A DNA stretch of 63,565 nt, filler included, from Octopus bimaculoides (taxonomy: Eukaryota), in the NCBI RefSeq assembly GCF_001194135.2. It is 5 parts of 4 records of this genome, joined end to end, with 100 filler letters (N's around TTAATTAATTAA, not from the genome) between each part and the next. Parts side by side here need not be neighbours in the genome. Positions count along the whole stretch, not along the records: positions 1 to 21,199 come from NC_068987.1; positions 21,300 to 43,075 come from NC_069003.1; 3 more parts are not named here. The stretch is one strand, 5' to 3'. Within the stretch, counting starts at the first letter, position 1; each line of letters begins with the position of its first letter. This document shows, piece after piece, positions 7,470-33,918 of this stretch. The notes under the pieces are model-generated. The model saw only the letters and a list, made by a program, of their open reading frames with translations. It ran no database searches and was not told where the DNA came from. A program made the position numbers and the translations under genes.

Positions 7470-7780
7470 ATCAAGTGGAGAATGGAGAAACAAACACAAG
7501 AAGAAGCGGGTCAATTGCGCTAGTTAGCCATTGATTTAATTATGTGGAGATTGTATAATGATTAATTGACGATCGTTTCGATGTACCAATTTGATTGGCA
7601 GATCTCTTCAGAATGTTGAGAAGTATGTTAAAGTTCATGGTGTGAGAGGTGCAATCTTGTATATGCATGTGGACTATACTCTTTTGACAGCTTGCTTTGT
7701 TTGAAGAATCCTAGCTTCGTATGTCGTAGGTTAAGGTGTCGAATTTAATCGGCCATACTGTTTACGGCTAACACGAAGTT
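7470..7780 (-). mobile_element. Penelope-like terminal-repeat mini-element abutting (TATC)n/(TA)n
   Basis: About 300 bp of non-coding sequence next to the microsatellite at 7417-7469, containing a hammerhead fold. The class is inferred from the hammerhead type. Confidence 0.45.
7564..7616 (-). ncRNA. Type I minimal hammerhead ribozyme motif (canonical core)
   Basis: The rc reads ACATT-CTGAAGA-GATCTGCCAAT-CAA-ATTGGTACATC-GAA-ACGATCGT-C-AATT. It has an intact CUGANGA/GAA core, an extended stem II, a palindromic helix III, a GUC site and only a 3-bp stem I. Confidence 0.7.
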
Positions 7781-9190
7781 AGCAAACGATATTTTTTATT
7801 CCTTCTTCTTGTATGTGTGTGGCTAAACAAAAAACATACAAACAACAACAACAACAACAATGACAAAATAAAATTTCACCTGTTTGTTGGTGTCGGTCCN
7901 NNNNNNNNNNNNNNNNNNNNNNNNNNNNNNNNNNNNNNNNNNNNNNNNNNNNNNNNNNNNNNNNNNNNNNNNNNNNNNNNNNNNNNNNNNNNNNNNNNNN
8001 NNNNNNNNNNNNNNNNNNNNNNNNNNNNNNNNNNNNNNNNNNNNNNNNNNNNNNNNNNNNNNNNNNNNNNNNNNNNNNNNNNNNNNNNNNNNNNNNNNNN
8101 NNNNNNNNNNNNNNNNNNNNNNNNNNNNNNNNNNNNNNNNNNNNNNNNNNNNNNNNNNNNNNNNNNNNNNNNNNNNNNNNNNNNNNNNNNNNNNNNNNNN
8201 NNNNNNNNNNNNNNNNNNNNNNNNAGAGGGAGAGAAAGGAAGTGGGAGAGAGAGAGGAACTGGGAGAAAAAGTTTGATAGAGAGAAAGAAAGAGAGAGAG
8301 AGAGAGAGAGAGAGAGAAAGAGAGAGAGAGAAAGAAAGAGAAAAGCGAGAGAGGGAGAGGGAGAACCATATAAGGTTCTTAAGTCATAGTAGAGACAGTG
8401 TTGGTGTATGTATGTGCGAGTGCGTAATTGAGAGAGAGAAAGTAGGAGAGAGAGTGAGAGAGAGGAAGAAGAAACAAAGGAAAAAGGAGAGCGTGTGAGA
8501 GAGAGAGAGAGAGAGAGAGAGAGAGAGGGGGGAGAAGGAGAAAGGGTCATATATAGGGGTTAAGTCACACAAGAAACTGTTGGTATGAGTAAATAAGAGA
8601 CAATCACTTACTTGGTTATCTAAATACAGTGATTGGACAATTTGTTGAACTGAATCGATTATGGAAGCAATAAAGAATCCTTCAAGACCATATTTCTTGC
8701 TCTTTGACACACACCATTCCATAGAATCCACTTTAAACAAAAAATAAAATTCATTGTAAAATATTTCATGTTTGATTCATATCATTAAATAAGACACTAA
8801 TAATGACACTAATCAATAATGACACTAAATAATGACACTAATCAATAAAATAAATTATCTTTCATCAGAGCTGAAATTGATCTTTTTCGGTTGTGTTTCG
8901 AAATCTGATTCCAAAATGTTTTTTAGTGTTTCCCTAGTACGTCTAGTTAGTGGGATACCTTTTTCATAAAATAGTAGTAAAATGGGCTCAATATATAATT
9001 AATAGCGACAGAAGAAGTATTAATAACAAAAAAGTAATGTTTATCTCCCATAAAGCGGCGAGCTGGCAGAACCAAGTAAACCACCCAGGGGTTCCCACGT
9101 TGGCCCAAGGGAATAGAGAAGAAGGGAAACAAGAACATAAAAATGTGACACTCTGGTGTACATCTCTAAATAAATTGTAATGAATCTCAC

Positions 9191-9367
9191 CACGAAATAA
9201 CAACGCAATGATAGATGAGTGACGATTTCTCCAGTCCATGGCCACTCGGTACGCAGTTCTACAACCACCAATTTCCACAAAAAGTTCCCCTTCGGACATG
9301 ACTTCGTTCAATAATGACCAATAGCTGGCGGGATCTTCAAATTCCCTAATTTCTTCTTCAATGTGGC
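9191..9367 (-). CDS. Internal coding exon, unidentified gene
   Basis: Strong polypyrimidine acceptor (ttttaaccctacag|GC) and donor G|GTGAGA. The exon is 177 nt, phase 1-1 and open: HIEEEIREFEDPASYWSLLNEVMSEGELFVEIGGCRTAYRVAMDWRNRHSSIIALLFR. Confidence 0.65.
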
Positions 9368-10422
9368 CTGTAGGGTTAAAACGTATATTAAAAAAAAAAG
9401 AGAGAAAGAAAAAACTGCCTTGAAAAGAGAGAGAGAGAAGAAACGCTAAGGCAAGTATAATGAATGAAGAGATTATAAAGGTATAATAACATTGTGTCGT
9501 CATCATAAATGAACCATGATCATCATCATCACTACCGTTATCACAACAACGCTGACGACGATGAAAATAGCCACAACCTCCGCCACTACTTATGCTACGA
9601 TCAATGATAACATAATTAAAGACTTACATACTCCTTTTAATTATTAACCAAACACAAAAGCTTCTATTTTACTTAATCACTAAAATTCTTGAATTTCAGA
9701 CTTGAGAGAACCCTGAACACAATTGTCTGCTTGAAAGACTACTCTTACCAAATCAGCTGCATAGTTTTGGACTTAAGTTCTCGTTAGAGTACATAAGACT
9801 CTGGTTAACGTAAGGCCGAAAAGAAACAGCTGATAGCTTTATAAATAGTGTATTTAAATTCACTTAGAGTCAAAGTGACGGCACACTTTTCTTTTAACTA
9901 TCACACATAACTTACATGGAATTGTAGCATTTCTTTTATTCTCTTCAAGAAACAGCTCTCAAAATTGTTTACAGCTATACTAATATGCGTTTCCTTTTTC
10001 AAAACACCCTTTGATCAAGATGATATTCTGGTCGTATACATTACAACATTATGAAGATATTTACCTTGTAGAAGACTTAATCCTTTATTTCTATAAATAT
10101 GCTTTATATTATGTATTTGTCATATGAAAAATTACTCGTTATAATCTTGTTGATATTTCTAGTACAACTAATCAACTTTAAAATTATTTCTTTTAGATAA
10201 TTTTCTGTTCCTATGACAGTTTGGAGAACCATTAAAAAAAAAACTAAAAATTCTTAGCTATATTAGATTTATATTTAAAGAAAATGGTGGATTAAACCAA
10301 ATAATATAAATTTTCCTATTCTTGTTTTGAGATATCTAGATAAAAAAAGAAACAAGATATGTAACACTCATGAGTTATGTGCGGTAGTGAAAAGAAATGT
10401 GTGTCGATAGCTTTGACATCAC

Positions 10423-31334: not shown

Positions 31335-31511
31335 GGAGACGATGGCCCCAAGTACCATGAATGAAAGTATGAAAGCAAGAGAACAGAATCATGACAGTGC
31401 TTTCGAGTCATACAGGAAAGATAGTACTGGGAAAATACTTACATCTTTTGGCCAATCAGATGGAAACTTGAAACACAACAAACTGGAAACAGACCACGAA
31501 AAATTAGAAAA
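31335..31511 (+). CDS. TJP1: ZO-1/TJP1-like gene exon (phase 2-2)
   Basis: ttgttttag|G...AA|GTATGT; 177 nt open: ETMAPSTMNESMK...ETDHEKLE(N). Confidence 0.7.
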
Positions 31512-33677
31512 GTATGTTTTGCTTATATTTGTGCAATGTTCGTTTTAATTCTATCGTTTATGCAGTGTTTGCTCTGATTGTCTCACTGATATCATTATTA
31601 TTATTATCATTATTATTATTATTATTATGATAACTTATGCTAAACTGCAGCCGGTTGTGGGCTTCTTTTTTTTTTTTTTTTGTGATTAATTTTTGTGTCC
31701 ATATGTTCTAGCATTCTGCTTGTCTCAGCTGTGATTAATTGGCTTCAGTATGGAATTGTAGTGCCATGCCACAATCTTGCTCAATATTAGAGTCTGCTTG
31801 CATTTTTGTCCTGTTATCATGTGCACTATGTCATGCAGGGGAGAAACATAAAAGCAGATAGGTCAATATATAAAGCAATCAGGTAGACATAGCTGTCAGA
31901 TAAATATATATATACACACAGTTCAGATAGATATAGTAATGAGGTAGATGTATTGAAGAAGAGAATGTTATATCGATTTTCAGTATGTAGTTGTATAAAG
32001 TAACAGTCCTCATGCAGCATGTAAGTTTTACCTACACACACGTGTGACATTTTTTCACCTTCAAAAACAGTGAGCAGTCACCATATTTTTCTTATACCTA
32101 CCATCTCTGAAGAGCGTGTGGTATTACTTAACCATGCTGTTCTCTAGTTTCTGGTTATTTAATACCTAGCATGAAACCAATTGGTAAGACCAGCTGAAAT
32201 GGATCAATAATACTGTAAACTTTGATTTATATATATATATATATATTTATATATATATATATATATATACACACACACACACACACACACACACACACAC
32301 ACAACACACACACACACACACACACACACGCACACACACACGCACACACACTCTGATGTTTATTTCAACCAAACATTTACAATAGATTTTTAGTTCTATG
32401 CAAAGTCAAATGTCAATGCATCTAATTTATTGCTTCATTAAGTACAAAAATATATTTGATATTTCACTAAATTATGCACAAAGTTTGTCGTGTTCTTATT
32501 GCTTGAAGCTTTTTTTTCTTTTTGAAATACCAAATCTAACTTTATTTTGTATCTGATCAAAATGATTTCCTGTGTGGTTCATAAACTATGGTGTTGTTAA
32601 AATCCTTATTCTGTTCTTGCTAAAGGGTGCCTCATTTCCAATTTGTTAGAAGTAAATGCCTACCATCAGTTATAAAGGGCAACTCTGTTAAAATGTTTCC
32701 TCACAACAAACTGACGTTTTTCCCAAGACAGGCTGTGGCTAATTTTCTCCAAATCTATTTCACATTGATAGCAACCCCTTGGTGTCTTTCCTTATTATCC
32801 CCTAAGATTTCATGGTTCAAATTTGCCAAAGTCATCTTCCAAAGAGTCCCCAGCTTCTGTAGAGAATAATAAATATGCATTTATTGAAGCCACAGTACTC
32901 AAGTAGTTCTCCATACTTTTAGTTTTATCCTACTTTACATAACCTGTTGACAACTTTTTTTAAGTCATTTTTTTTTTTCAATAAATACTTCATAGATGTC
33001 ATATCCATTTCTTTTAGTTGCTTTTTGTTATTTAATTTTTGTTGTATTTACTTCAACTCCCTCGGCAGGAAATATTTAACTACTAGTTTTGTACTTTAAT
33101 AACCCTTTTAATGTGGAAATCAGATATATCCACTCAAAACTTCGTTATCCTTAATTGTAGAAAGCAGTTTTATAAACCAATCTATTTTTTGTTGAGGAAT
33201 ATCAAACATTTCGAGTAAAGTGACATATTTCTTTCATGTGATCAACATGAAGTTGATATGAAAGGATGATGTTGTTTTACTCTTATAATAACTATGTAAG
33301 TAGTCTTACCTACAGAATGCTAGAATAAGTTCCACTTTTAATTTAATTAGACTTATAAAAAAATAATCTTTTTAGTCTGTAATAATTTTATAAGTACTTT
33401 GAGCTGAGCTGAATAATACAAAGAGAATTTATAATTCTTGTTTACTGGAAGTGTTTTTTTTTTTTTATCATTTTCCCTTCAAGACTTAAATTAGCAACTA
33501 TAGTTTTAAATTGTGTGTGTGTGTGTATATATATATATATATAAATATATATATATATATATATATATATATATANNNNNNNNNNATATATATATATATA
33601 TATATATATAGTAATGGTAAGACAACAAAAGAATGAAAGAGACCTTGATATTATGTAAATAGAGGAATTTATCTGTA

Positions 33678-33918
33678 ATATAATATGTAACAATTATTTG
33701 GTTGCCATAATAAAACTCTGAGTTTCGGATACTGGGGCGGAAACCTGCACCGGCATCTCTTCAGTTATCAAGGCAATCAAAATATGCTATTGAAGGATTT
33801 TTTCATAGCATATTTGATTGCCTCGATATAATTGAAGAGATGCCGGTGCAGGTTTCCGCCCCGACATCCAAAACTTGGAGTTTTATTATGGCAACCAAAT
33901 AATTGTCACATATTATAT
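33678..33918. mobile_element. Foldback of two inverted hammerhead-bearing units
   Basis: Arms of about 115 bp around a loop of about 7 nt (33795-33801); the differences are mostly transitions. It follows a (TA)n tract. Confidence 0.85.
33709..33769 (-). ncRNA. Type I hammerhead motif (left arm of foldback)
   Basis: The rc reads GATAA-CTGAAGA-GATGC-[20 nt]-GTATC-C-GAA-ACTC-A-GAGT-T-TTATT. The core is intact, stems I and II are 5 bp each (with G-U pairs), helix III is near-palindromic, and there is one extra C before G12. Confidence 0.6.

What the first reader, a model, noticed from the sequence alone, without database searches (positions are those of the whole stretch)
7564..33887. Recurrent system: several unrelated, microsatellite-abutting mini-elements each carry a minimal hammerhead ribozyme
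Seen: five sequence-unrelated 100-300 bp units (7564, 12331, 16536/16818, 30600, 33709/33828) share the order stem I, CUG(A/U)NGA, stem II, GAA, (near-)palindromic helix III, U-H, stem I. Each lies next to a (TA)n, (TTA)n, (TATC)n or (CA)n tract. Known: Penelope-like retroelements carry minimal type I hammerheads in their terminal repeats, and these are thought to need dimers because helix III cannot form in a monomer. Inference: this genome hosts many families of non-autonomous, hammerhead-tagged PLE-derived or retrozyme-like elements associated with microsatellites. I am not aware of a description of them in octopods, but I cannot check this.
Basis: partly seen in the sequence, partly recalled or inferred. 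Interest (0 to 1): 0.72.

Follow-up and report, generated by a model that had tools for sequence, protein, structure and literature searches.

The report
Penelope retrotransposon ends carrying hammerheads
Four of the five short repeats are the ribozyme-bearing ends of four different Penelope-type jumping genes in what is probably an octopus, a known arrangement; one of them carries a tRNA-like front that likely acts as its promoter, and self-cutting is predicted, not shown.

Summary
Observation mostly real; interpretation needs correcting. A strict scan finds five minimal hammerhead motifs (null mean 0.06-0.07) in four multi-copy families: A 7565, B 12333, C 16536/16818 (likely one insertion assembled twice) and E 33708. 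Unit 30600 is single-copy and fails (G at the cut site); 33828 is a mutated inverted arm. The families are not free-standing mini-elements. Longer genomic copies join each to a Penelope-like reading frame: A and E Hydra-type, C Neptune-type, B Poseidon-type (clades by motif). (TA)n adjacency holds for C and E, partly for A; B's (TTA)n is internal. A hammerhead-bearing, (TA)n-targeting Hydra element of Octopus bimaculoides is already in the supplement of PMC8557442. Two things I did not find in print. First, B carries a 73-nt tRNA-like A/B-box head; 30 of 37 copies that reach that zone begin there, and its frame is nearly free of TTTT. The scan noted this head before on other DNA. Second, about 8,100 C-type copies carry a pyrimidine (nearly always U) instead of A at core position 6. 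RNA-seq shows no ends at the cut sites.

The parts
7468..7653 (-). Family A: 5'-truncated terminal repeat (pLTR) of a Hydra-type PLE, ending in the (TA)n/(TATC)n tract at 7417-7466
   Evidence: 535 candidates, 40 scored, 91-96% identity; 95% to locus L036, which has the endonuclease upstream
7565..7614 (-). Hammerhead A: core CUGAAGA, long stem II, 8-nt palindromic helix III, C17; stem I 3 bp here, 4 bp in 15 of 21 intact copies
12251..12448 (-). Family B: terminal repeat of a Penelope/Poseidon-type PLE; about 52 open codons from an ATG near 12405 overlap the hammerhead
   Evidence: 3629 candidates, 40 scored; 91% to L148, which has RT-thumb and GIY-YIG frame upstream; translation
12333..12374 (-). 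Hammerhead B: CUGAUGA, bulged A, 5-bp stem II, ACGU, U17; stem I 3 bp here, 5 bp in 16 of 21 intact copies
12438..12491 (-). (AAT)n tract internal to family B, between the tRNA-like head and the hammerhead; the head of this copy would lie in the N gap 12492-13292 and cannot be seen
16438..16590 (-). Family C: terminal repeat of a Neptune-type PLE in (TA)n; hammerhead 16536-16572 with variant core CUGUUGA (U6)
   Evidence: 1411 candidates, 40 scored, 97-99% identity
16720..16872 (-). Second copy of C (hammerhead 16818-16854), likely an assembly duplicate across the 60-N gap
   Evidence: 16430-16651 identical to 16712-16933
30597..30638 (-). Unit D: single-copy, hammerhead-like but defective (G17, broken stem I); possibly a decayed Hydra-type relic between two (CA)n tracts
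33609..33790 (-). Family E: 5'-truncated terminal repeat of a Hydra-type PLE ending in (TA)n; hammerhead 33708-33770 (CUGAAGA, extra base before GAA, 9-nt helix III)
   Evidence: 2511 candidates, 40 scored, 90-95% identity
33800..33918 (+). Inverted, truncated arm of the same E insertion; its hammerhead (from 33828) has C3->U and G12->A

Best explanation
Four of the five units are the hammerhead-bearing terminal repeats (pLTRs) of four different protein-coding Penelope-like retrotransposon families, and the short copies likely arise when each element's own enzyme nicks AT-rich DNA, starts reverse transcription inside the RNA just behind the ribozyme and stops early or at the transcript's start. 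Shown: the motifs, the copy numbers, the links to RT or endonuclease frames, fixed 3' ends with an optional tail, variable or clustered 5' ends, and inverted arms. Inferred from the anole element PAc (PMC11167929): internal initiation at two neighbouring sites and protein-assisted, weak cleavage. Inferred from PMC4209133: helix III forms between two copies. For A and C the repeat runs on into a leader that starts with TATA-like bases and ends at the ATG, so the RNA likely anneals to the nicked (TA)n target there. In B the 5' ends pile up at a tRNA-like A/B-box head, likely a Pol III start. Most genomic copies are predicted to be passive passengers.
For: Genome-wide core counts: 9,347 vs 103 for the reversed control; 8,108 vs 0 for the C type. 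A: endonuclease in sense upstream in 7 of 30 loci; 12 of 30 carry a 175-nt extension, and in L056 its end leads to an ATG and a frame with RWK and DKT. E: endonuclease in sense upstream in 5 of 30 loci, inverted in 2 more; RT close by eye to Hydra-1_Obim. B: 26 of the 28 fully visible ORF-selected loci run from the stop codon into the head; Pfam RVT_1 above cut-off in L137 and L354; two 3' ends about 30 nt apart and an inverted arm in 43 of 67 loci. C: repeat, then about 700-nt leader, ATG and RT pieces in L297; L297 and L299 share the 3' region, which in L299 ends in a C repeat; BLASTP to B's RT E=5e-08. Positions 7 and 17, left free in the pattern, vary (17: 11 U, 11 C, 8 A, no G of 30).
Against: No gap-free full-length element was recovered; C's and A's links cross N gaps or an inversion joint. 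Clades are by motif and by eye, with no tree. Pfam GIY-YIG hits are below cut-off (E 0.02-0.03 for E; none for A or B). In B no shared sequence beyond the tail was found among 92 tails, apart from duplicate loci and one pair 75% alike over 137 nt, so the 52 codons are not shown to be the ORF start. Minimum-energy folds do not give the hammerhead fold for A, B or C monomers, and only A's dimer forms the intermolecular helix III with stem II kept. No pile-up of read ends at the cut site in three raw-read RNA runs for B or C (unstranded, about 6% of each run read). Only 21, 21, 28 and 26 of 30 copies keep a full core.
Confidence: 0.85

Rival explanations
1. The short B form is a true SINE: a Pol III master of about 250-280 nt, separate from the autonomous element and copied in trans by Poseidon protein.
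For: 30 of 37 copies reaching the -14..+7 zone begin there, against 6 ORF-bearing copies among 67; A and B boxes intact; no TTTT in the leader of the two loci where it was delimited correctly; RNA depth steps up about 2.3-fold at the head.
Against: The head is also part of the autonomous element (26 of 28), so the element's own transcript start explains the same ends. C also has clustered 5' ends (17 of 30 at -70..-94) without any tRNA-like head seen. The depth step can be copy number alone.
Confidence: 0.3
2. One reading: many independent non-autonomous, retrozyme-like mini-element families that target microsatellites.
For: 0 of the first 60 C loci had a PLE frame by tblastn with A, B and E peptides; ORF-less tandem C units of about 380-520 nt with two hammerheads exist (L279, L280, L287) and similar back-joints appear in RNA reads.
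Against: All four families link to coding frames. The C tandems look like internal deletions of the leader and have varied breakpoints. B does not abut microsatellites at its 3' end (1 of 30).
Confidence: 0.1
3. The motifs are chance matches in AT-rich repeat DNA.
For: Rfam lists no hammerhead; unit D is single-copy.
Against: 5 hits vs null mean 0.06-0.07; 90-fold genome-wide excess; architecture matches published Hydra hammerheads, and E's commonest helix III (12 of 26) equals that of Hydra-2_aMil.
Confidence: 0.02

Closest known systems
Hydra-clade PLEs, including Hydra-1_Obim of Octopus bimaculoides (PMC8557442; passages, section on Hydra, supplement rows read)
   Same: CxCX5C linker, C-terminal CxxC, RWK and DKT (seen in A), RT motifs (seen in E), (TA)n targeting, hammerhead with an 8-9 nt palindromic helix III; E also has the extra base before GAA.
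   Different: A and E are other families: their hammerhead sequences differ from the Hydra-1_oBim row. E has a long low-complexity 3' UTR; A has two 3' ends about 175 nt apart.
Minimal hammerheads of metazoan PLE pLTRs (PMC4209133; parts 1-2 of 4 read, one of two supplements searched)
   Same: B and C: no helix III beyond ACGU, a bulged base after A9, G10.1-C11.1, stem I of 4-5 bp, mostly solitary truncated copies, opposite-strand pairs.
   Different: C has U at core position 6, not found in the parts searched; no octopus entry in the searched supplement.
PAc, Poseidon element of Anolis (PMC11167929; parts 1-2 of 4 read)
   Same: B: hammerhead overlapping an ATG-led frame, two 3' ends about 30 nt apart about 120-155 nt past the ATG, no RNA-seq ends at the cut site.
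   Different: B has a tRNA-like A/B-box head and an internal (AAT)n ahead of the hammerhead; continuation of the frame is not shown for B.
Sm-alpha SINE-like repeats of Schistosoma (as summarised in PMC6765202, passages)
   Same: Pol III-type promoter followed by a type I hammerhead.
   Different: Sm-alpha is described as tandem and non-coding; B's head sits inside a protein-coding PLE, 35 nt after the stop codon, and copies form inverted pairs.
Non-LTR retrozymes (PMC7229834 passages; bioRxiv 10.64898/2026.07.22.740005 part 1 of 5)
   Same: ORF-less units with type I hammerheads, related to PLE pLTRs; some C tandems resemble them.
   Different: The window units are not fixed-length tandem monomers; no circular RNA shown.

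Membership tests
Minimal type I hammerhead of PLEs | Core CUGANGA...GAAA, U16.1, H17, stems I and II | tested here: met
   A, B, E; full core in 21, 21 and 26 of 30 copies
Minimal type I hammerhead of PLEs | A at core position 6 (family C) | tested here: not met
   U6 in 28 of 28 intact similarity-chosen copies; 8,108 genome matches with a pyrimidine at 6; the homologous family keeps A6
Minimal type I hammerhead of PLEs | U-H cut site and stem I (unit 30600) | tested here: not met
   G17, stem I 2 bp then mismatch
Minimal type I hammerhead of PLEs | Palindromic helix III allowing a dimer | tested here: met
   self-complementarity 0.89-1.0; energy-minimum dimer shows it with stem II kept only for A
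Minimal type I hammerhead of PLEs | Self-cleavage | not testable with these tools
   no read-end pile-up at the sites in unstranded RNA-seq, which is uninformative; PAc behaves the same
Endonuclease-positive Penelope-like elements | RT frame in sense with the repeat | tested here: met
   B: RVT_1 above cut-off; C: BLASTP to B's RT; E: motifs by eye; A: only N-terminal and post-RT pieces
Endonuclease-positive Penelope-like elements | C-terminal GIY-YIG endonuclease | tested here: inconclusive
   motifs visible in A, B, E; Pfam below cut-off; C's endonuclease lies mostly in N gaps
Endonuclease-positive Penelope-like elements | pLTR structure, optional tail, inverted 5' arm | tested here: met
   B: two 3' ends, inverted arm in 43 of 67; C: repeat before the leader and after the 3' region; E: window pair; A: L056
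Hydra clade (A, E) | CxCX5C linker, no CCHH, RWK, DKT, (TA)n target | tested here: met
   by motif against PMC8557442; RWK and DKT seen for A only; no tree built
Neptune clade (C) | CX2-5CxxC linker and RT placement | tested here: inconclusive
   RT stretch matches a Neptune-block row of the supplement by eye; linker in an N gap
Penelope/Poseidon clade (B) | No zinc-finger linker before the endonuclease | tested here: met
   frames; no tree built
tRNA-derived SINE (short B form) | tRNA-related head with A and B boxes | tested here: met
   73 nt; 46-48 bases identical to genomic tRNA-Ala, -Arg and -Thr(TGT), z 6.3-7.6; not called by ARAGORN or Rfam in 10 loci
tRNA-derived SINE (short B form) | Separate from the autonomous partner | tested here: not met
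   head is part of the coding element in 26 of 28 loci
tRNA-derived SINE (short B form) | Pol III transcription | not testable with these tools
   indirect only: 5'-end cluster, TTTT depletion
Non-LTR retrozyme | Fixed-length tandem monomers, each with a hammerhead | tested here: not met
   window units are solitary or inverted; C tandems vary in length
Non-LTR retrozyme | Circular RNA | not testable with these tools
   back-joints in reads are explained equally by genomic tandems

The most novel reading that the evidence does not exclude
Family B is an autonomous Penelope/Poseidon retrotransposon driven by a tRNA-derived RNA polymerase III promoter inside its terminal repeat. The polymerase reads through a TTTT-free coding frame, and thousands of SINE-like, hammerhead-bearing leader copies are by-products of that one transcript.
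Probability: 0.35. Interest if true: 0.65.

Novelty: new member of a known kind. Interest (0 to 1): 0.33.

Why it matters
As given, the finding is known biology: PLE terminal repeats carry minimal hammerheads and some clades target (TA)n. Practical value: at least 17,000 exact-core motifs in this genome (9,347 and 8,108, with slight overlap) should be annotated as PLE ends, not as SINEs, MITEs or host ribozymes. Two leads remain. A protein-coding retrotransposon under a Pol III promoter would blur the SINE/autonomous divide and show one route by which PLE-dependent SINEs arise. A young, very successful family with U6 fixed in the core is a natural test of whether cleavage matters to PLE mobility, a question PMC8557442 and PMC11167929 leave open.

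Tried and rejected
Rfam scan of the window: only microsatellite-driven miRNA matches listed. Relatives of unit D: none by DNA search, pattern, or nhmmer over 1.1 Mb of fetched loci. Idea that B is simply a tRNA-headed SINE: dropped when the head proved to follow the PLE stop codon. Search for B's frame beyond the tail: none; no N-terminus found upstream in 20 long copies, all truncated or gapped. Alternative parse of C with core UUGAAGA: stem II fails, and position 7 of the CUGUNGA parse varies as expected. RNA: no RNA holder listed; three raw-read runs laid on B and C are unstranded, with equal depth on both strands and no ends at the cut sites. One end pile at L298:5716 in 1 of 3 runs lies near the 3' end of the repeat, not at the site. 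Energy-minimum folding does not recover the hammerhead fold for most units. In one search the L056 row was taken on the wrong strand and is ignored; two of four leader rows were mis-delimited and are ignored. Lunse et al. 2017 (variants of PLE hammerheads) is not held and may already list U6; supplement file 1 of PMC4209133 could not be searched; Repbase and Dfam could not be seen.
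Full report
Setting. The window is a pack of five stretches. Units A (7564), B (12331) and C (16536/16818) lie on G000:C7; D (30600) and E (33709/33828) lie on C23. The genome has 2.34 Gb; octopus is my inference from its size and from the likeness of E's RT to Hydra-1_Obim.

Check of the observation. A strict scan for minimal type I hammerheads found 5 motifs, against a null mean of 0.06-0.07 and a maximum of 1 in 200 shuffles. 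The two C motifs lie in 222 identical bases on either side of a 60-N gap and are likely one insertion. D has G at the cut site and a broken stem I and is unique in the genome. Its core plus stem II is still rare by chance (6 of 200 shuffles) and its layout recalls Hydra hammerheads, so it may be an old relic. The motif at 33828 is a mutated inverted arm of E. Rfam listed no hammerhead among 150 shown of 189 matches.

Copy number. First-look candidates were 535 (A), 3629 (B), 1411 (C) and 2511 (E), with 40 scored each. The pattern CTGANGA-N9-24-CGAAACGTH matches 9,347 times against 103 for the reversed control; about 85 of the first 100 listed are family B by eye. The C-type pattern with a pyrimidine at position 6 matches 8,108 times against 0. 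Full cores survive in 21, 21, 28 and 26 of 30 similarity-chosen copies of A, B, C and E. Stems differ fully between families while pairing is kept; within a family, changes look like neutral decay.

What the units belong to. A: 7 of 30 loci have a CxCX5C plus GIY-YIG-like frame upstream in sense. 12 of 30 continue about 175 nt past the first 3' end, and in L056 an inverted arm carries the end of that extension into an ATG and a frame with RWK and DKT. E: 5 of 30 loci have such an endonuclease in sense and 2 more inverted; longer stretches show RT motifs close to Hydra-1_Obim. These motifs are those given for the Hydra clade. B: three of seven loci read showed the end of a Poseidon-type frame; a search with it gave 30 loci, and 26 of the 28 fully visible run from the stop codon through a 73-nt tRNA-like head, most of them on through (AAT)n and the hammerhead. 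RVT_1 scores above cut-off. C: none of the first 60 loci had a frame. A 117-nt match between two loci led to a family leader: repeat, about 700 nt of leader, ATG, and RT pieces in L297 that match B's RT and a Neptune-block row of the supplement by eye. Two hammerheads in tandem around a deleted leader were detected in 3 of those 30 loci.

Microsatellites. The 3' end abuts a microsatellite in 22 of 27 E, 13 of 18 C, 7 of 19 A and 1 of 30 B copies, against 6.6-10.3% for random places; rows without a readable end were dropped. (TA)n targeting is reported for Hydra and Neptune. In A and C the sequence that follows the 3' end in the element itself begins with TATA-like bases, which suggests priming by microhomology (inference). 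B's tract is internal.

Mechanism. In PAc, reverse transcription starts inside the RNA at two neighbouring sites that define the tail, the hammerhead cleaves only with protein, cleavage is not needed for insertion in vitro, and RNA-seq shows no ends at the site. B fits: 3' ends at two places about 30 nt apart, an inverted arm in 43 of 67 position-ordered loci, and the hammerhead inside about 52 open codons. I infer the same for all four families: short copies are the stretch between the transcript start, or an earlier stop, and the internal initiation site. The frame beyond B's tail was not found. RNA reads cover B and C on both strands alike, with no ends at the cut sites, which neither supports nor refutes cleavage.

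Two less ordinary features. (1) B's head has intact A and B boxes and shares 46-48 of 73 bases with genomic tRNAs (z 6.3-7.6), though ARAGORN and Rfam do not call it. Of 67 loci, 22 end at or after the (AAT)n tract (some at N gaps), 8 inside the head, 30 at -14..+7, 1 at -22 and 6 reach the frame. The zone was chosen after seeing the data, but 30 of 37 against an expected 6% is far beyond that bias. B's coding pieces hold 1 run of TTTT against 10.0 expected in 4,895 nt, while E (9 vs 9.2) and C (5 vs 6.9) show no deficit. The B pieces overlap, so the independent span is about 1.8 kb and the evidence is modest (roughly P 0.02-0.03 by my estimate). C also has clustered 5' ends without such a head (17 of 30), so clustering alone does not prove Pol III. 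Earlier notes of this scan describe the same head in this and other genomes and led me to PAc. (2) C fixes U at position 6, while a homologous family keeps A. A6C lowers Mg-dependent activity sharply in other hammerheads; U6 was not tested in the passages seen. C is young (97-99% identity) and abundant, so it may spread with a weak ribozyme.

Prior art. Minimal hammerheads in PLE repeats, mostly as solitary truncated copies, are described across animals, with mollusc entries in the supplement. Hydra-1_Obim with its hammerhead and (TA)n preference is in PMC8557442 Files S1 and S2. The O. vulgaris repeat paper lists 31 recently active PLE families and does not contain the word ribozyme. A tRNA-headed coding PLE and a U6 core were not found in ten searches; Lunse et al. 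2017 and Repbase were out of reach.

Verdict. Real but mainly known: new octopus members of three PLE clades. Interest 0.33. The Pol III reading of B is the part worth an experiment.

Noticed in passing
window 39364-39663 (+): Exon with a ZU5 domain (Pfam E 4e-18); the ZO-1-like identity is recalled, not tested. D and E lie upstream on the same stretch, and E's intact hammerhead is on the opposite strand.
   Followed up: partly
window 724-1047 (-): Mariner-like transposase fragment (HTH_48, E 0.003, below cut-off).
   Followed up: partly
window 59925-60014: Inverted repeat whose arms hold (TAACCC)n/(GGGTTA)n telomere-like units around a short spacer.
   Followed up: no
window 41222-43072 and 53652-54104: 1.85-kb degenerate (CGTT)n array and a 21-bp tandem array of 96% identity running into a stretch end.
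   Followed up: no
L002 and L008, 5' of the B tail: Another retroelement ending in (TAA)n sits in B's internal (AAT)n; its last codons recall R4/Dong-type endonucleases (recalled label).
   Followed up: no
L164, L225-L227, L231-L234: Family homologous to C that keeps A6 (loop GAGC..GCTC), about 200 nt, mostly in (TA)n.
   Followed up: partly
L295:1120-2003 (+): A further PLE with a CX4CX2C linker and GIY-YIG (Pfam E 4e-4) directly after a C copy and an N gap.
   Followed up: no
L049/L050, between two inverted A copies: PLE-type RT with DKG (RVT_1 E 3e-09) that matches no other A or E locus; probably a nested insertion.
   Followed up: no
L279, L280, L287: ORF-less tandem C units, 380-520 nt apart, with two hammerheads on one strand: natural dimer substrates for a cleavage test.
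   Followed up: partly
L148:2096, RNA reads: Hundreds of reads in all three runs join the B tail to a different upstream sequence, pointing to a second B-related subfamily or one expressed host locus.
   Followed up: no
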